This document shows positions 1 through 51,000 of a stretch of DNA of 64,000 nt, piece by piece (positions within the stretch are counted from its first letter, which is position 1; the number at the start of each line of letters is the position of its first letter). The DNA is from an uncultured bacterium. Its GTDB lineage: Bacteria; Omnitrophota; Gorgyraeia; Zapsychrales; Aceulaceae. The stretch is taken from contig CALGLP010000023.1 of assembly GCA_937930175.1 (NCBI GenBank), positions 27,205-91,204 of the forward strand, read 5' to 3'. The translations under genes and the position numbers were made by a program. The notes beneath the pieces were generated by a model. It worked only from the letters and a program-made list of their open reading frames with translations. It was not told where the DNA came from and searched no databases.

Positions 1-1
1 A

Positions 2-33000: not shown

Positions 33001-36000
33001 CAATGCTATGAGGCCACAAATGCATATCGGCAGTATGCATAGTAGAAATCCCGAGAAAGTAACTGCGGTAATCGGAAGACCTAAAAAATCGATAGCTGGG
33101 TGGGCGTTGCTCAATGATTATGCCGTAGAAACTCAGGATGAGGATAGCAAGATATTAAAAGGCCGGCCTGCGTCCCCAGGGATCTATGTCGGCAAGGTCA
33201 AGGTTGTTCTTTATCCGCATGAAAGTAACAAGATCGCGAAAGGCGACGTTCTGGTCTGCAGAACAACTGATCCGACCTGGACAGCATTATTTTCTACCAT
33301 CGGGGCTGTGGTGGCCGATTTTGGCAATGGAGTAACCCAGCATACTGCGATTACTGCCCGGGAATTCAGGATACCTGCTGTCGTAAACACAGGCTCAGCC
33401 ACTAGGCTGTTAAAAGACGAACAGGTCGTTCGAGTTGATGGTTACGAGGGCACAATCACGATTATTTCCTCGCCGGTCCTTCCCGCCCTCTTAACCCTTG
33501 GCCTGATGGGCACGGCGCTGGCAAGTTTTTCGGGCGTATCTGGGGCGGGTGCCATGACCCAGGCGGGGTTGATGGATGCAGGGGTTTGGGCGTGGCTCGC
33601 GGGTTTTGGCACAGAGCATCTTCACGAGCTTCTTGCCTTTAGCCGGGACACCTTGGGGCCGCCGTTTATTTTACAAGCATTTTTCTTTCTTGTGGCCCCG
33701 TTAGACTTCCTGAAAGTTCTTTACTCTCCGTTCACCCAGATATTCCAACCAAAAAAATTCCTGACAGAAAAGCCTTTGGTAAAGGCGGATGAAAATTCCA
33801 GCGAAAACCCCAAAGAAGCCTCGCAGTCCGATTCCCTTTTAAGAGAGCAGCAGGCTCTTGTTTCTGTCGAGCTTGGTATTTATAAAACAAAGGTTATTTT
33901 TTTAGGGGTCAGCGATAAAGGACGCCCGTTAAAACAAAAATTAATGTTTCGCAGTATCTTGACCAAGGATTTGCTGGAAGATACGCGCGTATCCGCTGAA
34001 AAGTTAGGCCGCTTTATCCTCCGCACGACCAAGGAAGCCCGTACTCAAGCTCAGAAGAAAGGCCGGCGGCTAGTCGTTTTACCGGTCTTTAGCTTGGCCT
34101 ACAATGATCGGTTTGATGCCCACAGTGAACGCTTAAGGCAGGACCTTTCCCTCATGCTGGGCAGCCAAGGCATTGTTAAGCCTGATGCGGTGGCGGTGCT
34201 TTCTTACCATTTAAGAAAAATCCTTCCCACTCTGGGGAAGAAAATCAGGGGCCAAAATCTCATTTTTCTTAAGATGTCCGGAGGATTGGGCGGCGGCTCC
34301 ATTGTCAACGTGCACACCCATGATCTTTATGAGAATGAAATTGTCAACCGGCCGGTGGCTGATATTAAGCTTAAAGGGAAAAGCCATCGCATTAAAGTCG
34401 GTTCAAAGATATTCACGCTCATCTTTAAAGGCTCCCAGCCTTTTTCAGCGGGGAATATTATTTCGGGTAAAGGGATCGAAAGAATTTTAAAGAGTATTGA
34501 TTGTCAATTAATGAAAGAAGGGCGTCGGCCTGTCTTTCAGGGGCTGCTTGCCCGGTATCCCAAGAAAAAGGTCGATGGGTATTTGCTGGAGGGGATCATT
34601 TCCAATGAGGTTCATGCCTCGCGTGAGGTGGTGAGCCTTTCGCGAAAAATTCTGGTCTTGATCGGCGAATATTTGGGTCAGTTGATCGTACTTTTGCACA
34701 AAGGAGAATTTGAGTCGTACAAAAAGAAAGACCGTTGGAGCCAAAAGGACAAGACAGAGGTTTCTCGCACACTGAATTTTATCCTAGAGACAAAAGGCGC
34801 GTGCGGTAAGATCATTAAGCAGTCTGCCGCACGGTATTTGAAAAAACATCTTCCTCAAGAGCAGATCTGTCTTGTTCATTTTTTTGATGAGGGAGAATTG
34901 GCAGCCGCAAAAGGGGCAGCCTATTTTATTCCCAGACAGGCTCTCTATGAAGCCCTGATCAAGGCCAAGTATCTTTTGTCCACGGTGAACGCGGGCATCA
35001 ACCGCCAGCAGCAGGTGGCTGAGCATTTTAAGAGCCGGATCATGAACGGCAAGAATGTCGGGCTCAAGAAATGTATTCGTAAGCTAAAGATCGCTTTCAA
35101 ACAAATTTCCGGTGTTGAGATGTATCGTTACCGTCAAGATTGGATCGCGGTTTTAGGCCAGACGATTTTTGCCAAGGAGAGCAACTCACTGCGGGAGGCC
35201 TTGAGCGAAGTAAGTTGTCTTTTAGGGGAGACAAAGTTTAAGGTTAATGAACATGTCTTAGGGTATCTGACGAGATCTCATGATCTTACGGAGCAAGATG
35301 CCGGCAAGTTAAAACTGGTCTTAGATTCTTTAAAGCCCCGTAAGTTTAAGAATCGCCTTAGATCTGGCTATGTTTCTTTACGTTTGCTTGTCAAGCAGTT
35401 GAGTACTGTTAAAAATATCGCGGTTCTTTTGATCTTGATGGGGGCCACCCTGGAGATCTTTGATCAGCTGGTGAATGTCCTAGACGTGATCTCAACGTTT
35501 TCGGGATATTTCTTTAAGTGGATGGGTAACGGTGTGGTTGTGTTGACCCTTTTGGGTTTGATCGCGTATGCTCTTAAGCCATTGTTTCGTCGGATCGTTT
35601 TTAGAGAATACCAATCGTTTGTTAGCCAGGACACGGTTACAAAAGCCGCGCGCAGGATCCGGGTCGCCCCGCTTGACTTTACTCAGGCGGAAGATAAATC
35701 GAGCTATAGCTATTTGGTGTTTAATTCTGTGCCTTTTTTAAGGCAAATAAGAGATATTGTGCACGGCATTATCCGTTATAGCGGTTTTTCGCATGATGGT
35801 TTTTATGGCGTGGAGGATGTTGGTGAGCACGGCAGGACCAAAGGTGAATTCCTAAATAAGTTAGTCATCGATTATTTAGCAACGGGGGCCAGGCAAAGGC
35901 GATGGAGCCGATGGCTGATGGATAAGGTTTTCCGATTTTCGTTGAGCCCGGCGTATTCTTATCGCAAGGGCCAGCAGATCTTAAGCCAGCTATTTGCGAT

Positions 36001-39000
36001 TCTTAAGGAAAAAGGATATACGCAGCCGGCTATTGACCAGATGATCAAGGAAGCGTATTTCCATGGAAAGACACCGGCATTGATCAAGGCCATGGAAGGG
36101 GCTTTTGAGCCGGGGATCTTTTCGTTCTTGGAGAACCGTCTTAACCTTGGGCAAATGGATCAGACCTCTTTTCTTCTTGAAAAGGGGGTTGCTTTAAGAC
36201 AGAGACAGAAAAAAGAGAATAGCGTGTTGTTAACTAGCCTTGTTTCTGAGTTAGGCTCGGAGAAGGCTAGCAGCAGTTGTGATCTAGAGGGGCATGAGCA
36301 TGGCCATCACCACGACCACGCGCATCATCACGCAGTCAATATGCAGACGTTGAAAAAGGTTTGTGCGATTGTCGCCGGCTATATGGTGATCGAATTATTT
36401 GGAGGAATGTTTTTCCGTTCCTTGGCGCTGACCGCGGATGCCGGGCATATGTTCATGGATGCCATGGGGCTTTTGTCGGTGTTGCTCGCGCAGTGGTCCA
36501 CGCAGCGTTGGGATATGCATAGAAAATATAATGGTGTTTCTTGGGCGGAGCTTCTGGCGACGGGTATTAATACATTGATGATCCTGATTATGGCAGGGTA
36601 CGTTTTTGTTGAGTCCTTTGAGCGCTTCGCTCAGCCTGCTGCTGTTGCGGTGTTGCCGGTGTCGGTGATCGCGCTTGTCGGGTTGGGGGTCAATATTATA
36701 AGCGAGAGGATCGTGCATCCACAAAAGGATAACGGGATGGGTATGAAAAGCGTATATGTGCATATTTTTGGTGATTTGCTGATCTCTGTGGGTGTTCTGG
36801 TCAGTATGCTTTTGATCAATATCACCGGAAACAATGCTTGGGATCTTGGGATCAGTTGTGTCATTACGCTTTGGCTTATTTTTAATTCAGGCCGCTTGGC
36901 TGTGGGGATGGTTAAGGCGGTCAAAGGCAAGCATGACGATGAACATCATTGGTATGATGAAGCTTCCGGATTAGGCGATGATCACTCGCATTATCATGCG
37001 AAGCACGAAAAGGCTTGCTCGTTGATCCGCGAGACTAATCTTAGGGCATATGATCTACCTGGCGCGGTCCAAGCCAAGGCCTTGATTGAGCCCACGACCG
37101 TCGACCTTTATGAAAAGACTGAGAGGCCTCTTAAAGCACCGATCGGATTCGAAGTCGAGTTCAATTTGTGCTCGTTAAAGCGTTTTGGCAGCAAAAAATA
37201 CCGCACCCGCATCCGCTCCTTGCCTTGCAAGCCTTATTGGGTGGCGACCGGCATCTTTGAGGTTAGCCCAAAACCTTCTTGGAGTTATCAGACTCAAGTG
37301 GCTATGGCGCAGGCGTTGCTGAATAAACTGGGGATTTTGGTCGAGGATATTATTTCGGTTCAGGTCAATCTGGGCATGCCTTCTAAGATCTGGAAAATAG
37401 TAAGACAGCTTGAGTTCCTTGAGGAAATGCAGAAGATCATGATGGTAACGGCTTTAGGCTTTGTTTCGGCTGAGCGCATTTTAAATAAGAAAACCAGCAA
37501 GGTCGTCGAGCTTCGTCCCGGCCGATGGTTTTTTAGCGAGGCCATGAGCCTTGAGGGTCAACGCTATGTGCGTTTTGAATGCGGATTTGCGGATTGGCTG
37601 ATGATCAATGAGATCGCAGGCATTTTGCAGCATCTGTTCCCGGCCTTGACCGTTTATTGCCGCAGTGATCTTGAGGCTTTGACCGATGATCAGCAGGAGC
37701 TTGCCGGGATCTGGCAGAAAAGGATCCGGGAGCCTTTGCAGTCCCTGGTTGATGAGGTTTTTTTCGCGGCGGATAAAGATTTTCTGATCGACAATGCCTT
37801 GACCTATGTTGCACTGCTGAAGCTTCGGGATGGGAATGAATATTTTCGGCAGGCCAGTCAGCAGATCTTGCGCGATGTATTTAAGGCCTATCAGCAATGG
37901 CGGGAGCGGGCCAAAGATTTAGGAGTATTGGAAAAGACGATTTCGTCTTGTATCTTTGAAATCCCAGTGGCGTCTTCATTTGTCGCTTGGACACCGGAGG
38001 CCTTTGAGATCTATGGCAATAAGGGTGGGCGCAGTTTTGTAGCATTAGCCTTTGCAGGTCAATTTAATGATAAGACTATAGGAAAAAGAGCTCTTTCAAT
38101 CGGCACAGGCCGTTACAATTATCCGGAGCTGGAATTGGCTCTTCGCGGTTGGGATGTTACGGTGGTGAGCCCGCTCACAAAAGAAGAACTATGGAAAACC
38201 CGCTTAGATCCTTGCAATGAGACATATCAGGGCATCCGGCCTGGCGCACTAGGGGCGGTCATTCGACAATCTGGGGGCCGCTATAGGTATATTAATTCAT
38301 GCTTTGAACTTGAAACTCCAAGCCAATATTTTCAAAATGAAAAATTTGATTTAGTGATCATCGCTAATTTCTTAGATACTGGAGGGGGTTCTGAATTTAT
38401 TAGACATGCTTTTAAATCTTTTGTTTCTATTTTAAGCGATGAAGGCCAGATGGTCATTGTTAGCAATCGAATTTGCTCCAGGAGCGAAAATTTTATCAAG
38501 AAACTTAGAAGAAATAATGTTGAGCTTAAGCGGTATCAAGGTCTTCCGTATTATGATCAACTTTTGCACCAAGTGGTTTATGCTGATTACGACGGTAATT
38601 GTTACTGGGATGTTATCTCCAGAGTTCAGTATTTTTATTTTCGGAAATGTCTTTCTTCTGTCATTTTGGTGGTAGATGATGAGGTCAATAATCTTGACTT
38701 AACAGCAATGATTGCAGAGTCTTTGGGCTATGGCGTGGTGAAGGCCGGTAGCGTCGATGCAGCGCTTGGGATCTTGCGCCGACAGAAGATCGATGCGGTT
38801 GTTTCGGATGTCAATATGCCCGGCTTAAGCGGTATTGATTTGGCACGTATTGTTGCCGAAAAGTTTCCTTTGGTTCCCGTCATCTTGATGACAGGGTGGG
38901 TGGCCGCGGACCAAAAAGAAGAGATCGCGCAATTGAAGTTAAAACTGATTTATAAGCCGATTGACCCCGATGATCTTCAAAAAGCGATTGAGAAGGTATT

Positions 39001-42000
39001 TTTAAGAAAGTCATCAAAAACCTCTTCGCCGGCGGTTGACCCTGAAGGACTAACGATATTTTTATTGGGGAGAGAGGGGGTCTCTTCATCAATCGCCTGG
39101 TCTCTAGAGACGATTGTCGGAGGAGATTTAAATGCTCGTTATTTAAAACGTATCTGCGAAATTATTAACACTCATGATGATGAGGAAGAACCAAGGGACC
39201 ATGGGCGAGAAAAGGTGGCGTTCTTGATTGGGCCGGCCGCTGATTTTTCGACGGCATGGTTAGCGACTCAAGCTTTGAAGTTCATTTTTATTGAGAAATT
39301 GCCATTGCATGTCACGTTGGACACTGTCCTAAAGAGAAATATCCAGGAGTTGATGGAACATGCTTTTATGTTGAGCATGATGTCAGCGCTCGGATCAGGA
39401 GATTTGCCTAATTTCGATCTGTTTCTTTATATGAATGAAAAGAAAATTATTGATTTGTATTGTATGGAAAAAAGTTTTCAGGGCTTCATCACTGATGAGT
39501 TCTTGGGGATCTGTGGAGGCGTGTGGCCATTTCTTAAGAAGGAAATCGAGATTGCCACGCGCGATTCTTCTGATCATATCAGCCCTGCGGCAAGAGAGGA
39601 TGATCCCAGGGTTTTTGATTTGAATTTTAGACTAAACAACAGGGAACACTCCTTGGTTTTTATGGAAAAGACAGATGGATTGGACGTCAGCAATTATGCA
39701 AATTATCTAAGGCTCTTTGGTGGCGTTGATTTTATTATCATTAAGGCCGGCGATGTTTATTTAGAGAATAAGAAATTTTTGCTGCCTGGACAAATCGTTG
39801 AGGAGTTCTTAAGGCCCGGAGGATTTGTCATTCTCGACAGCAAGAGGGCTCTTCAGCAGGGCCAAGCGGTTCGCGATTTACTGATACCTGTGGAAGATGA
39901 CGTACTTTTGAAACTGGAAAGGCAAGGGGCTGTTTTTGGTTACAATGGTCCTCTTTATAATGAATCAAAGAGCGGGGCATATATTTTTAAGAAGAAAGGC
40001 TCCATATCTTCGGCGGTAGCTTCTTCAGTGCTCGATATTCCTTCGGGCCGGGGAACAAGCTTTAAGATTTTATTGCCAGTTGCCAAAGAAAGCCAACAGA
40101 AAGAATCTTTTTGTCTGACGGGTGTCAAAGAGGGCAGGGCAACCAAGTCTAAAAACTCCGGATCACCATTAACTTTGTCTACGATCTTCGTTCTAGGCCT
40201 GGTCAGTTTAATGGGGGCAAGCTTGGCGGGATTGTCTGAGCCGGGCGCGGTTGCTCATGTGGGATTAATGGACGCAGGCGCTTTGCAGTGGTTGGAGGGT
40301 TTTTGGTCAGAGCATGTGGCGGCGGTGTTGTCGGCGGTATTTCCTAATGGGCCGGGGGAAGGGGTTTTGGTTTATGGCGCCTTTGCTTCTTCTCACCTTT
40401 TTGTTCTTGCCCTTCTTTCTCTTCTCATCGGATCTTTAATTTTTATATTTTTATTCCATCGCAAAAATCACGACCAGATTGCTTACCCTGAGATCCAGGG
40501 CATGGATTTTATGTCGGTTGTACGTTATTTTTTGCCTCAGGGCGATCTGACCCTCACTGATGTCGGAGCCGGGAATAACCGTTTTATTGAATCAGTAAGA
40601 GAAGATCTAGATAATGCTTTTTCGCTTTTGGTTGGCTTTGATAACAAGACCCCGGGCTATAAAAAGTATTGCCCCCACTCCCAAGAAGTTATTTCCCTTT
40701 CTCTTCAAGAGGCAGCTGGAGATCCAGACTATCAAGAATATTCTAACGTTGTTACCGTAAATGCGCCAGACGTGCATTTTTACGATGATCTTGTTCCTTG
40801 CGTGATGTGCTTGCTCAAACGGCAAGGCGTTGGCTTGATTTTTGTGAAGTTGGCTCCCAAGGATGGTTGTTATATCAAGAATCTGATGCATCAGATGCGG
40901 ATTTATGGGGCACAGCCGATTTTGCTCAAAAACCTTCAAGGTTATCCCAAGACTTTTTATACTGATGACAGAACTCCGGTCGTTTTGGGTGTAGTTCACT
41001 GGAGGCAGAAAGGATCTTGTTCGGCGAGCGTCACAGAGGATATGACTGTTGCTAACGCAGACGGCCTTTCTGCGCAAAAGAATTGTTTTTTTAAAACGAG
41101 ATGGCTGATCGCGTCTATCACTTGTACAAAAGTTCTATTGATGACTTTTTCTTCATTGATCAAAAAAAATAAAGTTCTTTTGCTCAGTGGTTTATTATTC
41201 TTTTTTCCTAACGCGGCGCTGGCTTTTGTTGGGACCGGCCCTGAGGATTCCTTGGGAAGCCTGCCTGAGGCCAGTTATTGGCTAGTAGAATGGATGTTGA
41301 GCCAACCGCTCTGGCTGGCGCTGGGCAAGATCTTGACGCCCGTTCTCGTGATCGCGCTTTTTTTAGCCAGGGCCAGGCGATGGAGGGTCTCGATCCCTGA
41401 GCCGGTTCAAGAGGCGTTGGGGATTCAGCCGAAATCTCGCGCGTCCGCGTCATCCAGCAGGCACGGATTGTTTTTCTCATCCTTGGGACCTTCCAACGCC
41501 TTTGATGATCAGGCTTACGAGACGCTTGTTAACAAGGGTTTTATCGTTCAAACCATTGCTCAGAGACGGTTTCTTTTTATTCTTCGCGTTTTTGACAAAA
41601 CATCTCTTGTACGCCGGCATCCGCAGAAGGTCTTTATGATCGATATAAGAGATATTGATGACCGAAAGCGTGTTGCACGTTTTGATTTTGTTTTTGATCT
41701 TGCTGCTCAAAGAGCTGTTGCAGATACGGCTTATGTCGAGTATCGCTTTTTAAAAGGATACGAGGAGTCGTTAGATCATCTTCATAGCGAGGGATATCGC
41801 GTTGCCCTTAAGGTTCTTGATAAGGCGCGCGATGTTTTCTTTTCGACTCGAGGATTAAGCTATCCTGTGAGCATCGATATTGCTGACGATTATCGCAGTT
41901 CAAAGAAAAAAGGCAATTATCAGTTTTTCACAATTCTTTTTAAAATATTCTTTTCTTTGGCTCATCAGCAGGGCATACAATCCTTTAAAGCGGTGCCGCT

Positions 42001-45000
42001 CAGAAAATCTCTTTTTGATCGGATCTTCGAGTACATCATTCTTCCTAAAAAGATAAGCCTTTTTCAATTTTATCAGAGAGCGATCCCTTTGCCGTATCAG
42101 AAGAAGTGGTCTTGGGATTTATACCCGTATTTAATTTTTGATCTTTCGGATATGCCTTCTGCGCTTGTCTTTTCTTTAAGTCCTGCCGGCACCAAGACTG
42201 AGGCGTTAACAACGTCTTCGGTGATACACCCAAAGAGCGATTCTGTCTATGCTCTGGAGGTCAGGGATTTCGACGGCGCGCCTGAGGCCCGGAACAAAGC
42301 TGCTAGGCTGCGAAACGCTCTTCTGAAGGCTGATATCCCTTTTGTTCAGAAGAAAAGCTTTGAAGATCTGCCCTGGAAAGCAATCACCAAGTGTATTGGA
42401 GAGCATGAAGGCCCTGTGATGACCTGGATCATTTTCGGGGGACTGTTTCGGGCTTGTTTACGAAAAACGATCAAAAAGATTATAGATCTTTGCTCTAAGC
42501 TATCGGGTCAGACGACGAGGATCGTTTTGCCTTTGTTTGCTATGAATCACCTTTATCGTTATGAATTGACGAGCGAGTCAAGCGAATTTCGTGCTTATAT
42601 GCAAGTTAGTGAAATTCCTCGCTTGATCGAGGCGCATTCCAAGGAAGGCTTGATCACAACAGGGAAAGAACCTTGGCTTAATGCGGATGGATATTATTTT
42701 ATGTTTGACTATGACGCAACCAAACAGCAGGTCGTGATCCGTTGTAATGGACAGATTTTACGTGTTTTAGGAGACGAGGCTTCAACCAAGCATACTGTGA
42801 TTCTTGATTTTGTGATGACATTGGAGGGTTTTAATAAAGTTATGGAACAAACCCAGATTACGGCTGTGAATGTCGATGGTAAAGAGGTAGGCAAGTTAGC
42901 GCAAGAGCAAGAATTCGGATCCCCATTAGTACTTCCAACCATTTTAGTCTTAGGCCTCATCGTCTCTGCGCTGGCAAGTTTGCTGGGCTTCTCGGAGCCC
43001 GGCGCGGTTGCTCACGCGGGATTGGGGGATGCGGGGGTTTTGCAGGGGTTGGCGGGTTTTTGGTCAGAGAATGTGGCGGTAATGTTGTCAGCAATATTTA
43101 CCAATGGGCCGGGGGATTTGGTAGCGATGAGCTTAGGGCTTTCTTCGGTTTCGCCTAGCCTTTTATTATTTAAGGAAGACAATGCTATTGGACCAGGCCA
43201 TTTAGTTAATGAGCACGCGCCTTTGGAATTAACAGACATGATTCAGCCAGGGTTCTTGACTCCTGGACTGGTCGTTGTTCATAGCGATGATATTCTCCAG
43301 GAAGTACTCTATATATACAGCGAATATAATTTTGTGGGGGCTGCAGGAACGCTTGCGGTGTATCTAAAGCGTTCACGCTGGATCAATCTTTATCCGCGGA
43401 TATTCGCCTATCTTGATAGAGTTCTTCCTGAATCTTATGAAAGGATTGTTTTAGTTAGATCCTTTGAAGACCCAGAAAGGGTAAAGCACGAGATCCTTCA
43501 TGATCTTGTTGAGTTATCTTCACAAGTAGACTCCCGTCCTTTTGAAAGTCTTATTGAAGCTTTCAGTAAGATTATGGAAGAGGATAAAAATTTCAATGAA
43601 AAATTTCATGAATTCCTGTGTCCTAATGGAGCATGTGACACAGGGATGAACGTGGAGCATTTTATTTGTTATTTCTTTTCTGGCCAAAGGTCTCACGATT
43701 GCTCCGAGGAATACCTTTCCTTTACTCGTACTTATCATTATGAAGAACTTTATGATTATTTTTTGCATCAAATGCCGCGCGAAATTATTGATTTATTTGA
43801 TCAGCTTGGTTTAGTCTGGCCGGATGGTAGTGATGTTGATCAAAATGCTGGGGACACGCAAGAAACATTTAGCATATCTAGTCCCCGGATTGCTCATCGT
43901 ACGGGTGTGTGGGAGCTTGAAGAGGCGGGCAAGCCCAATGATCCCAGGGAAGATGTTTCTTCGCCGATCTCACGGGAAGACTTCATCGATAACTATCTGA
44001 CATCGCTCGGCAAGCATTGGGCAGACTTAGCGCCGAAGATGAAGCCCCTTCTACTTAAAAGGTTGATAAGTCTAGAAGCCGGGGCTGATTATTATGTGCA
44101 AGACAAAGAGGCTTTTGCCGCGCTTGCCGACCTCGGCATAGCGAGTGCCCATATGTTCATGCTGTTGTTGCGCACTAGGGCGCGTCCTGACGTCGAAAAA
44201 GAGGTCCTTCTTGAGAAAAACATCATCGAGGGTAACTATGAGCCTGTATTTCAATATTTCGTCAATTTATATAAATATCCCAATGAAAGCGACACCTTTT
44301 CTAGGTATCAATCTGCTGTTGTCAGATATGCGATCCTCCTTGAGGGCGATACGGTCGTCAAAGCCCCGCGTGATATTGTTGCCTACATTAAGGACATTGT
44401 CATTAACGAGTTTATAGGCTCAAGGGAAGAAATCTATTGTGGATCAGCTTACGGCCAGTGTGACCTTTATCCTCGGGCTGCTGTTAATGAGGCGCAGCAA
44501 TATTTTGAACGACATTTTCTTGAGTATTATGGAGTGGCTTTTCCGGTATTGCTCGCCGATGTCGTTGTTTTCACGAAAGATGTAAATAAATGTTTTTCGT
44601 CTCAATCAAAGATCGGCGTGGCTTATTCCTCGCACGACTCCTCTAAAATATATCAAAAGGTTGTTCCTTCTCTCATAAGGAAGATCTTCCACGAAGCCCT
44701 GCATTTGGCTTTGCCGTACAGCTTTAATGATTTTTACGCCTTGAGAATTTTTGATGAGGGTCATATAAGATATGAAACGGACGAATTTACCTGGTTCGTC
44801 GATCCGCAGAGTTGCCATGTTGACGATGGCATAGCCGACGATATATATTTTCCTCATCGCCGCTTATTCGTATCTCTGCAGGAAATCGTCGGCAGAAACA
44901 ACATCATTAAGATGAGAATGGAAGGAAAGATCGGCCCGTTGGTCGCCGCCTTGGGCGCTTACGGGAATGAATTGATGATGCTGTTTGAGTATGTTCAGGC

Positions 45001-48000
45001 TACGAAGAAAGAAAGGCTGGGCCTTGAAGTTGGCAGCGGCTACACGGAGACAGCGCCCATCGACGATTCCCAAGAGCTCCTTTTGAATAGGAATTCTCCG
45101 GAGATGCTTCTTCAATTTATCGAAAAGGAGGAAGCGGTCCTAAGTGCTCAACGGCCTGATTGGCAGGAGCGTAATAAAAAAGGAACAATATTCGATCCGT
45201 GCTTTAAAGGTCGGCTAGCGGCTTCCTCGCCAATTCTTCCTTCTGTTCTTATGCTTGGCCTGATCGTCTCTGCGCTGGCAAGTTTGCTGGGATTGTCGGA
45301 AGTCAGAACCACTATTCACGCCGGAATTCTTGATATAGACCCTATGGACTTTGGCTATATTTTGCGGAGTTTAGTCAGAATCGGGTTGTTCACCGCAGGC
45401 GTAAGTTTGTTATTTGAGAATATTATCTTAAACTTCTCTGGAAATGTTTATGAGAAATTCTATAAAAAGACGCGCATGGGCATTCTAAACGCCCGGGATA
45501 TTGTGCATGCCGGTGAACTGGGGGCGCGAGGATTTTTTATCGGGTATCAACGATGGTTTAGACGCATCGGCGCAAAAGATCTCACCAAGAATTTTGTGAT
45601 GTTGTTAGCGACAGGGAAATCCTGGGAGATCGCGTATCAGAAGATCGCGGATAGCTTAGATTCTTGGGAGACTCCGGAAACCCAGCAATGGCTTAAGAAG
45701 CAGGGCATTGACCCCAGGATCAAGCCAGACCCCAGCCGCATGGTTGTTTTTCATTTGGATACGGTGATCCCGCAACAAAGAGAGGACTATTTTTCCTTCT
45801 CAAGGACCCTTGGTATTGTGTGTGATACGTTTCATATCCCACAAGCGAAAGCGAATCGTTTCTTTTGGTATGGGGATTGGACGTTGGATGATCAAGGTAA
45901 TCTCGTACAGATGTCCCCCGAAGAATTTTTTTCTCTTAAAGACGATATTCACTCTCGTGGGTTTAAGATCAAGGATTTTTTATCAGGGCAGATGCCTTGC
46001 GAGGACGCACAATATCGCTTTTTGTCCGCCATGGAACAGCAACGACAGAAGACCTCTGATCAATATCGTGCATTGGGCGGCGCTGATTTTGTGGCATACA
46101 GTTTTGGGCCGTCGTATCAGGGTAAGGGGCATGTGGCCTTTGTGGAATCCATGGATGAGGTACGGGATCAAGCTTTCATGGATTTGGGCGGGTATCATTT
46201 TGCCGCCAGTCAAGCCTCTCAAAATGGAGGTTTCAGCCGCACCGTTGGCAAGCACGGTTTTGTGACTTTTTCGATCGCGGATATAACGTTTAATCCTGAG
46301 GCGTATTTAGTGGGCATTGTGACGGATCATCATAAATCTTCAACGGTGCGTATGGCTGTTGAAGGAGATATCGCAAAGGATTTTCCGCGCTATCCGGCAA
46401 CCGGTTTGCAGAGATCTCAGGGGGTCTTGATCTTGACTGATGAATCCGCGCGTGATCTGCGCGACCGAAGGCATCCCTGGGACTTTCGTGTACTAAAAAA
46501 ACCTGAATGGACTGAAGAAATGCGCCGGACATTTTTGATCCGCTTGTCTCAAGAAGCTGGCAAGCCTTTGACACAAATCATGGATAAAGATTTTATTGAT
46601 CCCGAAAAAGATCTTCCTGGACCCGTCCTAAGGATACGGCGGAAGAATTTAAAAATATTCAAAAGTTTTGGATCCTTAAAGTCGCAGGGTCAGGCGTATA
46701 TTCAGTTTGTCATGGATCATATGACAACCACGGCGCCGCAGGCCTTAGCGGAGAAACTTTGGGGGAGAGAGCGCATTCATTCTCTTGAGTTCATCGCGGC
46801 TTCGCTCGATTTTTTAAGAAATCAATATGAACAATGCCTATGTTATGGTCATGATGGATCCAATATCCAAGAGCTGATCCAGTCAGAAGAGAAATCATTA
46901 GCGTCAAAACAAATTACTATTTTATTGAAAGATCCTCATCCTGATGATAGTTTTCTCGCCCTGCTCATTGGTTTTCTTAGAAATCTTATTGCCAAGGGTT
47001 ATGTTAGAGCCTATGCCATTTGCGCGACCACAGGGGCCGAGGCGGTGAGCGATGTATTGGTTGTGCAATTTCTAGAAACCATGCGCTCCTGGGATCAAGA
47101 AACCATCAACCAAGCCTTTGATCTTGATCGTGGAGAAACAACGAAGCAATTGTTACAAGACGCCATGGCCCAAGAAAAACCCAGTGATGTTTTAAGTTAT
47201 GATGTGCAAAGTAAGATGACCGCAACGGGATGGCATTTACGAACAAAACTTATTTTTAATTATTTGTTCGTTAAGCGATTCGAATATCAACATGCCCCGC
47301 CAAAACAAGAACTTCAAGAATTTTTAGACAAGTTGATCGCCGAGATCGAGGCCAAGCCAGATTGGGGAGCTCGGGATAGTGAAGAGATTGTCTATATGAA
47401 AAGCATTGTTCGCGTGATCGAGAATAAAACTGCTATGATGGCCCTAGGGCTTCCTTATGAAAACATTTTTGATCCGATGAATTTTTCTTGGTATCAGTCT
47501 GGGGTCAAGGATGGGACAGCGCGCGATCAAGACGTAGAAAGGCTGATCAATGTTATTAAGGGCATAGGACGCCTGGATATGATCATTGGTAATGGGGAGG
47601 GTTTTCGGTCTTACGATACGCATGCGACCGTTGAAGCCATGGTGATTGCGGCGTTGTTAAAGTTGTTGGAGCAAAAATGGATCGACCCGAAAACGTTTCG
47701 GTATTTCACTTATGAAGGCGTGTGGAAGAGAAAGTTGCTAGAAGAAGCAAATCTCACTGTTCTTTATTCTCAAGAAGAGATCGAGGAATTTGATCGGATG
47801 TTCTTAAATCTTTATCCATCTCAAGTGCCTGCAGAAATGCTGGATGCTTCTCAGGAAAGAGTGATGCTGTTTTCACAAGCCGTTGTTCAACATGGGAAAA
47901 AAACAATCAAAGAATTGAGAAGAGTTTTAGGGTCTCACAAGGTTGACGAGGTTCTGCCTCGCGCTAAAATGGCGCTTCATTTTAGAGTTTTAAGGTTGTC

Positions 48001-51000
48001 AGACCCAAACGATCTAAACACAATGCCCCAGAAGATCGAAGAACTTGAAAGGGTTCGTGGGCCCTTGGAAAGGGTCAGTCCGTTAAAGCTTTATGGACCG
48101 TTACCAGGTTCTATTTTAGAAAAAGAAATTGGTAAGAAATCTATAAGCTCACCTACACAAATTTCTTATTGTGCTGTCCAAGGTGAATGCGAGGGCCGAA
48201 GTATGTGGTTTAAGATTTTGCATGCCCCTTGGACCATGGTTCACGTTATCGGCAATCTTGCGCAGGCCTTTTTGACAGGGCGACGAGCAGATATAGAAAA
48301 AATAGATCTCTTGGCTGGTATTACCTATAAAAATCACGCACCTCCTTGTTATGGGGGTATGATGGCGAATATCCTTGCATGTGTTGCAGTTCTTTATTTA
48401 AGTTCTTTTTGGTTGCTTAGGTTTTATGCCATTGTGCATTTTGTTTTTGCCGCAGCTGAAATTTATTTTCATTATTTTTCTTTTGATAAGATTTTTTCTG
48501 ATCTTGATTTCGAGATTCATGAAGACCTTGAGCAAGACCCCCAAGCAAAAGAAAATTTAGAAGCATTTGTTCGAACATTGAAGGATCAATACTTCTTTGT
48601 TGTTTATCCATGGGATGGAGACTTCGATAGCGCGAGACGATTTATGATGGAAAACGGTTTTAATGCGCAAGTCATCGAGGATGCGCGTTGGTCGCTTAAA
48701 GAATTGTGGGATAACATTGATCAAATGAACAACCCGCACCATGATCTGCTTGCTCGCTATAGCGTTGATAGCGTATTGGCATTTCGCTTGATCAATATAG
48801 CAGGTGAGTTTTATATTGAATTTTTAGTCGTCGATAATGGCCCTGGTTTTGACGATATTGAACAGGCTGTTATGACAACTTATACATCAAAGATTTTGAC
48901 TGGTCAGCGCGGCTTGGGGCTTCCTGGTTGCGCTCGAAGAGCATTGTTTCATCAAGGCGGGTTATCGATTGCGTCCAGAGGAGAGGAGTTTATTATTGAT
49001 CGGTTAATTGATCTGAGTTCTTTCGTCCACCAAAGACCAAGGCTAACGATCGTTCAAGTCTTTATGCGTGCTCTGCGCGAGCATTTATCATGCGCCATAG
49101 GGCCATTATTATTGATCTTATTTTCTAATCAGATCTTTTTTAATGCTTGGGGTGATGCGCTGGTCCGTAATACCCTGACCGGAGCTGTGACGGGATTTTT
49201 GGGTCAGTTGCTGGCTGGATATGTTGCCAAGAAAGAATGGAATATTTTCAATGCTTTTGGCATGGGTGTTTTAGGTGCGACATTTGGTTTTCAGATTCAT
49301 TATGGTTTTAAGATCATCAATCAAATCGTTCCTTATAGCGCAGATCTTTTAGCGCAGGGGTTAAGGACTTTTTTGATCAGCTGTATGGGATTAGCGACGT
49401 TGTTGCAGACAAGTGTTTGGCGTCATGTGGCTAGGATGATTCAAGAGAGATTTTCTAAGAATATGATGAAGGACCCTCATTATTCTGCTCAAGCCCAAGT
49501 GGCTAAAAATATTGATTCGATCGTGATCCTTTTTGCTTTAGGCGTAGGTACGAATTATTTGTCTCAACTATGGGATAGCCCGCTGTTTTATATGACATCG
49601 GGGATGGCGGTTTTTATTTTGCATCGGTATTTTGATGAGCGCATGAGTCCCGTGTTGAATATGATGTCGCGGGCGTATCGGATAATAGATTTTCTTTATC
49701 AGAAATGGTGCGTTGGTAATCTTTTGGCTGTGCAAGTATCTTTACGAGTGCGTGAAAGATTCCTCTTTTTTTGTAAGCTTTTGTTGTTTTCGAAGAAAGC
49801 GAAACAAGGCCAATATGCCGGTGTTGTTGTGCAGGGAGTTTATGAGAGGGTTTTTGAAGGCACGGAGCGGCCTTTTGAGACTGTTGAATCCTTAAAGGTT
49901 TTCATTCAAGTTTATTATGATGATTTTGTCGGAAACACGCTGAATTATCTATCTGCCTTGGCTGAGCTTAAGACGTTATTAGGAGAGATAGGAAATAAAG
50001 AGGCGCGGCTTATTTGGAAGATCGTTAAGGATGTTGATGAGAGTATTATCAATGATTTTGAAGAGATAAGAGAAAGTAAAACACCTAGGGAGTTTGTTGT
50101 AAAGGCTCTTTCTTATCAGACGTCGCATATTCGCTTAGCAAGATCTTTAGTCAGGAAGATGATCAGAGCGGACCTTGTTTGTCCTGAATTTTTAGGATGC
50201 GCATATCAGTATTTGCACGAATCGCAAAGATTTTATAAGCAGCTTGAGCAAGGCATTAAGGATGTTATTGGCAAAAAGTTTCGAACACCCCGGACAAACA
50301 CCTTGCTTTTGACCGGCGAGCTTCAACGTGAAGAGGAAAGCCGTAGCTTATCGCCATTTCAGTCTTCCACCGCGCAGGGCTCCTCCGTGCTCGGTCATCT
50401 TTCTGAAGAATTTTCTCTTAAATTTCCTTTCTTACGGCATTTTTTAGTGCCTCCGGTTCAAGTACAACCCGTGCTTGAAAGAAATAGTTCAGAACGTCAA
50501 TTCAACCTTAAGGGGCAGATGTCTGCTGCAGCATGGCATCGGGAACGTGGCGAAGAATATGTGGCTTTGGAGCTTGAAGATCTGATCAACGTGATCCGTA
50601 AGATCCCGGGTTGCCCTAAGGAAGGCAGCGATGATGATTTTGTACTTGCTCATCGTAAGCCCGAAGGCAGGATCTGGTGGGATATTGAGGGCGGAGAGCC
50701 AAAAGTTCGTAGGATCTTGGAAGAGATATGCCAGTTGCATCCTTTTGTCATCGACGCATTGATTCAGCAGGTGTACGTTAATCTGACGCAGTCGAATTCT
50801 TATCATGCAGTTGTTAATCAGGGGTGCGTTTTCTTGTTTAAAAAATATCTCAAAGAGAGCACTCAAGAAGATCTGTTGTTTGGCTTGCCCTTGACGGTTG
50901 TATGGCAAAATAAAATGTTTCAGCTGGATCATCAATCGCAGGCCGCAGTTATCGAGCGGGGAATGCAGACGGCTGTTGATAGGGTGATGGCTGCAGTCTG

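What the first reader, a model, noticed from the sequence alone, without database searches (positions are those of the whole stretch)
38660..48990. Two-component-like parts (REC receiver and GHKL ATPase) without a recognisable HisKA/H-box
A clean CheY-like receiver (VVDDE..DVNMPG..MTG..YKP) sits at 38.66-39.0 kb, and a HATPase_c (DNGPGF / GQRGLGLPG) at 48.7-49.0 kb, ~10 kb apart. I saw no H-box between them. Together with the embedded ECF sigma domain, the GHKL domain could equally be an anti-sigma-factor-type kinase (RsbW/SpoIIAB-like), hinting at an internal partner-switching logic.
Basis: inference. Interest (0 to 1): 0.5.

Follow-up and report, generated by a model that had tools for sequence, protein, structure and literature searches.

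The report
Receiver and orphan kinase-like ATPase domains
Inside one 17,588-codon gene of an uncultured Omnitrophota bacterium sit an ordinary phospho-receiver domain and, 10 kb further on, a very divergent histidine-kinase-type ATP-binding domain that has no histidine-phosphotransfer partner; they look like two separately shuffled cassettes of an already described kind of giant mosaic protein, not a hidden signalling circuit.

Summary
The whole finding lies inside one open reading frame (window 101-52867, 17,588 aa, still open at the window start) of an Omnitrophota MAG. A full receiver domain sits at 38663-38992 (Pfam 67.6 bits, all catalytic residues present). A GHKL-type ATP-binding cassette sits at 48578-49063. 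It is below Pfam's threshold (17-23 bits against 26.4), but GHKL families are the only ones it hits. Its N, G1 and G2 residues are invariant in three lineages, and it is under purifying selection (dN/dS 0.13). It aligns to histidine-kinase CA domains at 96% hhalign probability, against at most 1.8% for shuffled controls. No HisKA/DHp, HPt, STAS or PP2C domain was found.

The partner-switching idea is not supported. The cassette resembles kinase CA domains more than RsbW/SpoIIAB (score 64 against 32). The ECF sigma domain lies 38 kb away. A third lineage carries the cassette with no receiver within the 3,300 aa held upstream or about 1,050 aa downstream, and the flanks differ between lineages.

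Best reading: these are independent cassettes of an Omnitrophota "multi-enzyme" giant protein, a class in which both Pfam families are already catalogued. The receiver is probably fed in trans. The cassette is probably an ATP-binding module of unknown target. Interest is modest.

The parts
101..52867 (+). Single giant ORF (17,588 aa from the first TTG). The frame is still open at window base 2, so the gene may start upstream of the window. It contains every other part listed here.
   Evidence: The same ORF is 100% identical in ENA ERZ724082 NODE_195 (93 kb) and in NCBI GCA_036722365.1.
38663..38992 (+). CheY-like receiver (REC) domain, giant aa 12855-12964. The acidic pair (VVDDE), phospho-acceptor Asp (SDVNMPG), Thr (LMTGW) and Lys-Pro (YKP) are all present.
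   Evidence: Pfam PF00072 at 67.6-69.6 bits; PDB receivers; NCBIfam response regulators; 47% identical ortholog with the same residues in L084/L085.
41153..41374 (+). Hydrophobic (transmembrane) cluster, giant aa 13685-13758, conserved at 54% with the sister lineage, where it directly follows the receiver.
42254..42850 (+). Conserved block of unknown function (giant aa 14052-14250, 36-37% identity to the sister lineage), lying between REC and the GHKL cassette in both species.
   Evidence: no Pfam hit at E<=5
48347..48475 (+). Hydrophobic stretch of about 42 aa (one or two membrane helices) immediately upstream of the GHKL cassette.
48578..49063 (+). Divergent, DHp-less GHKL (histidine-kinase CA-like) ATP-binding cassette. 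N-box ELWDN at 48701, G1 DNGPGF at 48833, TYTSK, G2 GQRGLGL at 48902.
   Evidence: Sub-threshold Pfam HATPase_c and HATPase_c_2 are the only hits; TIGR01925 at 19.9 bits; invariant E..xN, VDxGPGF, TSK, R..G..GC and SRG in 3 lineages; hhalign 96.4% to kinase CA domains against shuffles of at most 1.8%; dN/dS 0.127 between L086 and L087.
49085..49700 (+). Polytopic membrane domain following the cassette. It is the most conserved part of the region: long runs are identical to the sister lineage (RNTLTG.VTGFLGQL.AGYVAK, GMGVLGATFGFQIH, LGVGTNYLSQLWDSPLFYM). It is absent from the third lineage.
   Evidence: its only database relative is a 115-aa fragment, P0009, at 66%.
10679..11188 (+). Embedded full-length ECF sigma-70 domain (regions 2 and 4), the sigma domain the finding refers to. 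It lies about 38 kb upstream of the GHKL cassette.
   Evidence: TIGR02937 at 64.6 bits, cutoff 42.9; Pfam Sigma70_r2 and r4_2.

Best explanation
The receiver and the GHKL-like domain are two separate cassettes of one membrane-anchored, mosaic giant protein of an Omnitrophota bacterium (the 'multi-enzyme' class of giant proteins). They are not a disguised two-component pair or a partner-switching module.

Shown:
- The receiver has every residue needed for Asp phosphorylation.
- The GHKL cassette keeps the Mg-ATP ligands (N-box Asn, G1 Asp/Gly, G2 Gly) and is under purifying selection.
- It has no DHp, HPt or conserved His in cis.
- Its neighbours differ from lineage to lineage.

Inferred:
- The receiver is phosphorylated in trans, by a separately encoded kinase or HPt protein or by a small phosphodonor. 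It then switches adjacent membrane or glycan-handling segments. In the sister lineage it is followed closely by a membrane cluster and, in one variant, a sugar transferase.
- The GHKL cassette binds ATP and acts as a DHp-independent kinase or ATP-dependent switch on a nearby part of the giant protein. In this lineage the likely target is the strongly conserved polytopic membrane domain that follows it.
For: - One ORF, Omnitrophota origin. AccA best hits are Omnitrophota MAGs at 82-62% identity.
- REC is intact and its ortholog is conserved.
- GHKL homology and conservation.
- No HisKA, Hpt, STAS or PP2C in cis. The upstream 300 aa compared with a DHp profile give at most 1.9% probability in all three lineages, and no His is invariant.
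- Cassette-like behaviour: REC-to-N-box spacing is 650 aa (L084), 970 aa (L085, with an extra Bac_transf domain) and 3,237 aa (window).
- The third lineage (L086/L087) has the cassette with no REC in the 3,300 aa held upstream. Its neighbours are different: M23 peptidase upstream, and WD40/HEAT or RpiB downstream.
- About 9-13 hydrophobic segments separate REC from the cassette in the window.
- Literature: among 779 Pfam-positive Omnitrophota proteins of at least 10 kAA, PF02518 occurs in 136 and PF00072 in 105. They fall in different co-occurrence modules, with REC grouped with sugar metabolism (bioRxiv 10.64898/2026.06.07.730766). HATPase_c and PPDK_N are among the 20 commonest domains of giant Omnitrophota proteins (bioRxiv 10.1101/2023.11.21.568195).
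Against: - REC and the cassette are collinear in the two closest lineages, which could reflect functional linkage rather than shared ancestry alone.
- Only three lineages could be compared.
- No usable structure model was obtained (pLDDT 42.6), so the fold is supported by profiles and motifs only.
- ATP binding, kinase activity, the trans-acting donor and the membrane topology are all untested. The parity of the membrane segments between REC and the cassette is unknown.
- The ORF may continue upstream of the window, where a DHp or HPt domain could lie.
- A sigma-like segment co-occurs with the cassette in two giant ORFs.
Confidence: 0.55

Rival explanations
1. Cryptic intramolecular phosphorelay. 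The CA-like cassette phosphorylates a His on a very divergent or remote phosphotransfer domain, as in CheA where the His sits on a distant HPt domain. The phosphate then passes to the REC domain of the same polypeptide. A possible alternative His carrier is the PEP-utilizers phospho-His swivel domain at 33.2-33.5 kb.
For: - The cassette is closest to genuine histidine-kinase CA domains.
- REC and the cassette are collinear in two lineages.
- REC is fully competent.
- The ORF also carries PPDK_N plus PEP-utilizers with the TQHTAITARE His motif.
- The ORF may extend upstream of the window.
Against: - No Hpt, HisKA or H-kinase_dim hit in 17,588 aa.
- No invariant His and no DHp-like profile match upstream of the cassette in any lineage.
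- The L086 lineage has the cassette without REC.
- The spacing is 3,237 aa, with many membrane segments in between.
- Phosphotransfer from a PEP-utilizers His to a receiver Asp is, to my knowledge, unprecedented.
Confidence: 0.12
2. The GHKL domain is an RsbW/SpoIIAB-type Ser kinase and anti-sigma factor that holds the embedded sigma domain, forming a partner-switching circuit within the giant protein.
For: - There is no DHp.
- The only NCBIfam GHKL hit is TIGR01925 spoIIAB (E 5e-4).
- Pfam HATPase_c_2 aligns from the pre-N-box helices to G2 (profile 15-104 of 127).
- An invariant Glu sits four residues before the N-box Asn, as in SpoIIAB. By my own knowledge this is also true of NarX/DesK-type kinases.
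- A real ECF sigma domain lies in the same ORF.
- A SigB/F/G-like fragment lies in the L086 giant ORF.
Against: - No STAS, STAS_2, SpoIIE or PP2C domain in any of the ORFs examined.
- Scores are far below family cutoffs: 14.2 against 27.4, and 19.9 against 135.
- hhalign to RsbW/SpoIIAB reaches only 41% over 38 columns, against 96.4% over 91 columns for kinase CA domains.
- The sigma domain is 38 kb away and of ECF type. By established knowledge, ECF sigmas are normally controlled by ASD-type anti-sigma factors, not by RsbW-type kinases.
- The cassette is flanked by membrane segments.
- The sigma segments of the window and of L086 are not homologous to each other.
Confidence: 0.07
3. The cassette is a decayed relic of a kinase CA domain that no longer binds ATP and serves only as a structural spacer.
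For: It falls below the Pfam gathering score in every slice. No homolog was found in 5.8 billion or 1.84 billion protein libraries or in PDB sequences. The single-sequence model has low confidence.
Against: The residues that ligate Mg-ATP in GHKL proteins are exactly the ones that stay invariant at 27-33% overall identity. dN/dS is 0.127. The protein libraries appear not to hold this giant protein at all (no self-hit), so the absence of hits is weak evidence.
Confidence: 0.12
4. The GHKL resemblance is a chance motif match and there is no such domain.
For: Single-sequence evidence is weak: E of 1e-4 to 7e-3, and no PDB hit.
Against: The real hhalign score of 64.4 far exceeds the maximum of 18.7 from 40 column shuffles. 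Three of the four sequences scanned (three lineages) each hit the same two GHKL families and nothing else. The motifs occur in the right order and spacing and are invariant.
Confidence: 0.03

Closest known systems
Catalytic ATP-binding (CA) domain of sensor histidine kinases (Pfam HATPase_c, PF02518)
   Same: N-box Asn, G1 DxGxG and G2 GxG motifs occur in the canonical order and spacing, with an AFETR[YF]-type stretch where kinases have the F-box. It is the best profile-profile match: 96.4% over 91 columns.
   Different: It is below the Pfam gathering score. There is no adjacent DHp/HisKA helix pair and no conserved His. It lies between membrane segments deep inside a 17,588-aa protein. It is known from only three Omnitrophota lineages.
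RsbW / SpoIIAB anti-sigma Ser kinases (Pfam HATPase_c_2, PF13581; TIGR01925)
   Same: It is a DHp-less minimal GHKL domain of about 150 aa with a Glu four residues before the N-box Asn, a TSK/TTK stretch before G2 and a short ATP lid. There are weak hits to both models.
   Different: It has much weaker profile similarity to these than to kinase CA domains. There is no STAS partner, no PP2C phosphatase and no adjacent group-3 sigma gene. It is not a small soluble protein.
CheY-like receiver domains of response regulators and hybrid kinases (Pfam PF00072)
   Same: Full-length match, all five catalytic residues present, and 30-40 bit matches to FleR, CheY, Spo0F and RcsC receivers.
   Different: No recognisable output domain or cognate kinase in cis. 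It is embedded at residue 12,855 or later of a giant membrane protein.
Giant multi-domain proteins of Omnitrophota ('Archaeovorin'/multi-enzyme class; West-Roberts et al. 2023 bioRxiv 10.1101/2023.11.21.568195; Seymour et al. 2023 PMC10066038; bioRxiv 10.64898/2026.06.07.730766)
   Same: Omnitrophota origin, more than 10,000 aa, many hydrophobic segments, a tiling of unrelated enzyme domains (PPDK_N, methyltransferase, ECH, CDF transporter, ARMT1, PIG-L), poor conservation, and large indels between close relatives. HATPase_c and Response_reg are already listed among frequent domains.
   Different: No SecA_DEAD, dockerin, HEAT or glycosyltransferase domains were found in the part seen here. Neither preprint mentions the embedded ECF sigma domain ('sigma' occurs 0 times in each).
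CheA-type (class II) histidine kinases
   Same: The GHKL domain is not directly preceded by an H-box. In CheA the phosphorylated His lies on a remote HPt domain (established knowledge).
   Different: No Hpt, H-kinase_dim or CheW-like domains are detected anywhere in the ORF.

Membership tests
Response regulator receiver (PF00072) | Profile match above the curated threshold over the full domain | tested here: met
   67.6-69.6 bits against a gathering score of 30.2, profile 1-111 of 111
Response regulator receiver (PF00072) | Acidic pair, phospho-acceptor Asp, conserved Thr/Ser and Lys | tested here: met
   VVDDE, SDVNMPG, LMTGW and YKP in the window. The same residues are kept in the L084/L085 ortholog.
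Response regulator receiver (PF00072) | Phosphorylation by a cognate histidine kinase or HPt protein | not testable with these tools
   No kinase or HPt in cis. The rest of the genome is not available.
Canonical sensor histidine kinase (HisKA/DHp + HATPase_c) | DHp dimerisation domain with a phospho-acceptor His (H-box) immediately N-terminal of the CA domain | tested here: not met
   No HisKA, HisKA_2, HisKA_3 or HWE hit at E<=5. Regular expressions find nothing. hhalign of the upstream 300 aa against a DHp profile gives at most 1.9% in 3 lineages, and no His is invariant.
Canonical sensor histidine kinase (HisKA/DHp + HATPase_c) | CA domain with N, G1 and G2 boxes | tested here: met
   Motifs are invariant in 3 lineages. 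hhalign gives 96.4% to kinase CA domains. However, the Pfam score of 17-23 bits is below the gathering score of 26.4.
Canonical sensor histidine kinase (HisKA/DHp + HATPase_c) | F-box and an ATP lid of kinase length | tested here: inconclusive
   AFETR[YF]TSK aligns with the kinase F-box region with a 2-residue gap. No structure is available to confirm it.
RsbW/SpoIIAB partner-switching module | HATPase_c_2 / TIGR01924-5 match above threshold | tested here: not met
   PF13581 at 14.2 bits against 27.4. TIGR01925 at 19.9 against 135. hhalign 41% over 38 columns.
RsbW/SpoIIAB partner-switching module | STAS-domain antagonist (RsbV/SpoIIAA) encoded alongside | tested here: not met
   No STAS or STAS_2 hit in the 17,588-aa ORF, in the downstream genes, or in the L085 and L086 ORFs.
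RsbW/SpoIIAB partner-switching module | PP2C/SpoIIE-type phosphatase input | tested here: not met
   No SpoIIE or PP2C hit.
RsbW/SpoIIAB partner-switching module | Adjacent cognate group-3 sigma factor bound by the kinase | tested here: not met
   The only sigma domain is of ECF type and lies about 12,600 aa upstream. Binding was not tested.
Omnitrophota giant proteins (multi-enzyme class) | Encoded by an Omnitrophota genome | tested here: met
   The flanking AccA is 82-62% identical to Omnitrophota MAGs, and other phyla reach at most 59%.
Omnitrophota giant proteins (multi-enzyme class) | Single ORF over 10,000 aa, with many membrane segments and many unrelated Pfam families, none of which dominates | tested here: met
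   17,588 aa. 36 hydrophobic windows. At least 12 distinct families. No long internal repeats.
Omnitrophota giant proteins (multi-enzyme class) | Divergent SecA_DEAD domain (reported in most full-length giants by West-Roberts et al.) | tested here: not met
   No SecA hit at E<=0.01 in the part inside the window. The ORF may extend upstream.

The most novel reading that the evidence does not exclude
The giant polypeptide carries a self-contained, non-canonical signalling circuit. A DHp-less CA-like kinase, and/or the PPDK-type phospho-His swivel domain, would feed the embedded receiver. The output would include control or proteolytic release of the embedded ECF sigma domain. That would place a whole sensory pathway, from kinase to transcription factor, inside one 17,588-aa membrane protein.
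Probability: 0.05. Interest if true: 0.75.

Novelty: new member of a known kind. Interest (0 to 1): 0.3.

Why it matters
Giant Omnitrophota proteins are an open problem: nobody knows how megaproteins of 10,000 to 150,000 residues are regulated or what they do. This case shows three things.

- At least one of them carries a fully competent phospho-receiver, so the megaprotein is probably wired into the cell's phosphorelay network.
- The 'HATPase_c' domains counted in these proteins can be orphan, DHp-less cassettes that move independently of receivers. They should not be read as histidine kinases.
- The cassette described here, together with the highly conserved membrane domain that follows it in two lineages, is a lineage-restricted GHKL subfamily invisible to standard thresholds.

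None of this overturns current views. It mainly refines the annotation and removes a tempting but unsupported partner-switching reading.

Tried and rejected
- **Protein database searches for the cassette.** The word-indexed homolog search with the 206-aa cassette and with the 4-sequence alignment found nothing. A 4,619-aa query timed out.
- **Exhaustive phmmer.** A 1,200-aa stretch (47198-50797) was run against 1.84 billion representatives. The 61 hits cover only the upstream PIG-L-associated domain, the hydrophobic stretch, and one 115-aa fragment of the downstream membrane domain. None covers the cassette. The window's own protein was not found, so giant proteins seem to be missing from these libraries and the negative result is weak.
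- **Genome collection scan.** A genome-contig scan with the cassette region found no relatives.
- **PDB sequence searches.** The single-sequence search gave no hit. The profile search gave only a spurious Cfr methyltransferase match at E 0.003.
- **Structure prediction.** The single-sequence model had pLDDT 42.6 and was judged unusable, so no fold search was run. I did not seed AlphaFold with RsbW sequences because that would be circular.
- **MutL/Hsp90/GyrB-type reading.** The TSK motif suggested it, but it was rejected.
- **Junction motif.** A regular-expression search for it in orthologous loci and in the retrieved proteins found nothing.
- **Supplementary tables.** Those of the two giant-gene preprints are not held or contain no domain tables.

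Full report
**Setting.** The finding spans 38660-48990, but the whole interval lies inside one open reading frame, 101-52867 on the + strand. That ORF is 17,588 codons long and its frame is still open at window base 2. So the REC, the GHKL and the 'embedded ECF sigma' are parts of a single giant predicted protein. The same sequence occurs 100% identical on ENA assembly ERZ724082 NODE_195 (93 kb) and in NCBI MAG GCA_036722365.1, and at 99.97% in a second ENA assembly. It is therefore not an assembly accident. The genes downstream are ordinary bacterial housekeeping genes: U32 peptidase, ComM-like Mg-chelatase, YkuD transpeptidase, AccA and RlmN. AccA is 82%, 78% and 68-62% identical to Candidatus Omnitrophota MAGs, two of which are labelled Planctomycetales/Planctomycetia by a third-party pipeline. 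Other phyla reach only 50-59%. The source is an Omnitrophota bacterium.

**Domain content of the ORF (Pfam).**

| Domain | Window position |
|---|---|
| ECF sigma (regions 2 and 4; TIGR02937 64.6 bits against cutoff 42.9) | 10.7-11.2 kb |
| ARMT1-like | 13.8-14.6 kb |
| PIG-L (weak) | not given |
| Enoyl-CoA hydratase | 28.5-29.1 kb |
| Methyltransferase | not given |
| PPDK_N | 30.8-31.8 kb |
| PEP-utilizers swivel domain | 33.2-33.5 kb |
| Cation-efflux transporter | 36.4-36.9 kb |
| Response_reg | 38663-38992 |
| HATPase_c (weak) | 48806-48991 |

A Kyte-Doolittle scan finds 36 strongly hydrophobic windows. Self-BLAST finds no long internal repeats.

**The receiver.** Pfam Response_reg matches end to end (profile 1-111) at 67.6-69.6 bits, E about 1e-18. 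phmmer finds 129 solved receivers, including FleR, CheY, Spo0F and RcsC. NCBIfam finds only response-regulator and hybrid-kinase models. The residues that established knowledge of CheY marks as essential are all present: the acidic pair, the phospho-acceptor Asp, Thr, and Lys-Pro (VVDDE, SDVNMPG, LMTGW, YKP). They are also retained in the 47%-identical ortholog of the sister lineage.

**The GHKL domain: database evidence.** The quoted motifs exist: ELWDN at 48701, DNGPGF at 48833, GQRGLGL at 48902. Pfam HATPase_c scores 17.2, 20.5 or 23.1 bits depending on the slice, always below the gathering score of 26.4. It covers only profile positions 35-103. NCBIfam gives only TIGR01925 (spoIIAB) at 19.9 bits against a cutoff of 135. 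Nothing was found in PDB sequences, in the word-indexed protein collection, or over the cassette in an exhaustive phmmer search of 1.84 billion representatives. Those libraries did not return the window's own protein, so giant proteins appear to be absent from them.

**The GHKL domain: orthologs found at the DNA level.** Two other lineages carry the cassette.
- The locus fetched through AccA synteny (L004), and two JGI metagenome contigs of the same species (L084, L085), carry a 47%-identical stretch at the end of another giant ORF of at least 3,661 aa.
- Two further contigs (L086, L087) carry a 35-38%-identical copy inside a third giant ORF of at least 4,482 aa.

In the four-sequence alignment (A2), overall identity to the window is 27-33%. 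The invariant positions are nevertheless the ones GHKL proteins use for Mg-ATP: E-x-x-x-N, V-D-x-G-P-G-F, T-x-x-T-S-K, R-x-x-G-x-x-G-C and S-R-G. Scanned one by one at E<=10, three of the four sequences hit HATPase_c and three hit HATPase_c_2, and no other Pfam family appears.

**The GHKL domain: profile comparison and selection.**

| hhalign of A2 against | Probability | Score | Columns |
|---|---|---|---|
| Six kinase CA domains cut from the fetched loci | 96.4% | 64.4 | 91 (N-box to the strand after G2) |
| 118 Bacillaceae RsbW/SpoIIAB proteins | 41% | 32.1 | 38 (G1-G2 only) |
| 40 column-shuffled versions of A2 | at most 1.8% | at most 20.2 | n/a |
| RsbW set against the kinase set (reference) | not recorded | 88.6 | not recorded |

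With single-sequence templates, kinase CA domains reach 72%, 54% and 49%. Between L086 and L087 the cassette has dN/dS of 0.127 (24 synonymous and 13 non-synonymous differences).

I conclude that a real, selected and very divergent GHKL domain is present. Within the superfamily it is nearest to histidine-kinase CA domains. The fold is therefore inferred, not modelled.

**No phosphotransfer domain.**
- No HisKA, HisKA_2, HisKA_3, HWE_HK, H-kinase_dim or Hpt hit at E<=0.01 across the ORF.
- None at E<=5 in ten overlapping slices from 38978 to 52864.
- H-box, HisKA_3 and HWE regular expressions find nothing.
- The 300 residues upstream of the N-box, compared with a DHp profile, give at most 1.9% probability in all three lineages.
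- No His is invariant in the cassette alignment.

The sequence upstream of the cassette is also not homologous between lineages. It is a hydrophobic pair in the window, soluble sequence in L085, and an M23 peptidase in L086. The cassette is genuinely DHp-less in cis. The caveat is that the ORF may continue upstream of the window.

**Partner switching.** The defining companions of RsbW/SpoIIAB are a STAS antagonist, a PP2C phosphatase and an adjacent group-3 sigma factor (established knowledge). None is present in the window ORF, the downstream genes, or the L085 and L086 ORFs. The sigma domain in the window is of ECF type and about 12,600 residues away.

- the spoIIAB model is the only NCBIfam GHKL hit;
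- the HATPase_c_2 alignment extends from the pre-N-box helices to G2;
- L086 has a weak SigB/F/G-like region-3 fragment (TIGR02980, 26 bits against a cutoff of 234, E 6.5e-6) about 2,300 residues upstream of its cassette.

The Glu four residues before the N-box Asn is shared with SpoIIAB. By my own knowledge it is also shared with NarX/DesK-type kinases, so it does not discriminate.

**Are REC and the cassette linked?** tblastn of the window protein against L084 and L085 shows collinear blocks:
- REC (aa 12852-12969, 47% identity);
- a hydrophobic cluster (aa 13685-13758, 54%);
- an unknown block (aa 14052-14250, 36-37%);
- the cassette plus membrane domain (aa 16239-16525, 47%).

The distance from REC to the N-box is 650 aa in L084 and 970 aa in L085. 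L085 has an extra Bac_transf sugar-transferase domain after the REC and the hydrophobic cluster. In the window the distance is 3,237 aa. In L086 no REC occurs in the 3,300 aa upstream, nor in the roughly 1,050 aa downstream, which are occupied by WD40 and HEAT repeats. L087 has RpiB downstream instead. In the window, about 9-13 hydrophobic segments lie between the two domains, so even their sidedness relative to each other is undetermined.

The membrane domain after the cassette (49085-49700) is the best-conserved element of the region in two lineages but is missing in the third. The only unit common to all three lineages is the cassette itself, about 160-220 aa.

**Literature.**
- Giant ORFs over 20 kb are common in Omnitrophota (PMC10066038).
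- West-Roberts et al. list HATPase_c and PPDK_N among the 20 commonest domains of the giant proteins.
- A 2026 preprint finds PF02518 in 136 and PF00072 in 105 of 779 Pfam-positive proteins of at least 10 kAA. It places them in different co-occurrence modules, with the receiver grouped with sugar metabolism, and describes a 'multi-enzyme metabolic cluster' class and a dominant 'TM-only, cytoplasm-facing' topology.
- Neither preprint mentions HisKA, two-component systems or sigma domains.

**Explanation.** Confidence is about 0.55. REC and the CA-like cassette are independent, separately shuffled cassettes of an Omnitrophota multi-enzyme giant protein.
- The receiver is competent. I infer it is phosphorylated in trans and controls neighbouring membrane or glycan-handling segments.
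- The cassette binds ATP (inferred from its invariant ligands and purifying selection). Lacking any His domain in cis, it acts as a DHp-independent kinase or ATP-dependent switch on a nearby target. In this lineage that target is probably the conserved membrane domain.

The rivals are a cryptic intramolecular relay (0.12), an inert relic (0.12), RsbW-like partner switching (0.07) and a chance match (0.03).

**Verdict.** The object is a new member of a known kind, namely a divergent orphan CA-like domain and a normal receiver inside an already described class of giant protein. Interest is modest (0.3).

Noticed in passing
window 3071, 33476, 40169, 42929, 45233 (each about 180 nt; giant aa 991, 11126, 13357, 14277, 15045): Five copies of a junction motif of about 60 aa occur inside the giant ORF: (S/G)SP-[ILV]LP.[ILV]L.LGL[IMV]...A.AS[LF].G........AGL.DAGVW.WLAGFW.E. 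It is a Ser-Pro followed by one hydrophobic helix and a Trp/Gly-rich tail. Two copies are 81% identical over 144 nt at the DNA level. One copy directly follows the PEP-utilizers domain. L086 has a similar 'SSSSP plus helix' right after its GHKL cassette. There is no Pfam hit. These may be module boundaries or membrane anchors.
   Followed up: partly
window 10679-11188: A complete ECF sigma-70 domain (regions 2 and 4; TIGR02937 64.6 bits, above cutoff) is embedded about 3,500 residues into a membrane-anchored giant protein. It could only act as a sigma factor if released. The two giant-gene preprints do not mention sigma domains. A non-homologous SigB/F/G-like region-3 fragment sits in the L086 giant ORF (L086 about 3000-3320 nt).
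   Followed up: partly
window 30848-31756 and 33236-33451: A PPDK_N (ATP-grasp, 229.8 bits) plus PEP-utilizers swivel domain is present, with the phospho-His motif TQHTAITARE intact but no PEP/pyruvate-binding C-terminal domain. This is the architecture of PEP-synthase-like or rifampin-phosphotransferase-like kinases. It is the only recognisable phospho-His carrier in the ORF.
   Followed up: no
window 1-4976: The ORF frame is open from window base 2, and the source contig continues about 27 kb beyond the window start, so the gene may be longer than 17,588 codons. The public gene call on the identical contig lists a product of only 15,963 aa, meaning a start near window 4976. That leaves more than 1,600 stop-free in-frame codons uncalled.
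   Followed up: partly
L084 6671-9089 compared with L085 6608-10001: Two metagenome contigs with identical GHKL and membrane-domain sequences differ by an insertion of about 0.9 kb between the receiver and the cassette. A Pfam scan of L085 finds a Bac_transf sugar-transferase domain in this interval; L084 itself was not scanned. Whole domains come and go in this giant gene between very close relatives.
   Followed up: partly
window 47198-48133 (giant aa 15700-16011): A domain of about 300 aa with no Pfam match has 46 relatives at E<=1e-10 (30-41% identity) in proteins of 300-6,900 aa. Several are roughly 1,000-aa proteins in which it follows a PIG-L deacetylase-like segment. It is an uncharacterised family lying just upstream of the GHKL cassette in the window only.
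   Followed up: partly
window 11648-12322 and 37346-37960 (giant aa 3850-4074 and 12416-12620): Two distant segments of the giant protein both match the same stretch of the L084/L085 giant ORF (48% and 33% identity). This points to an old internal duplication of an unannotated domain that self-BLAST at E<1e-3 did not report.
   Followed up: no
L085 about 2650-2800 nt (aa 884-934): The sister-lineage giant ORF has a second, degenerate receiver-like segment in which the stretch around the phospho-acceptor Asp is deleted.
   Followed up: no
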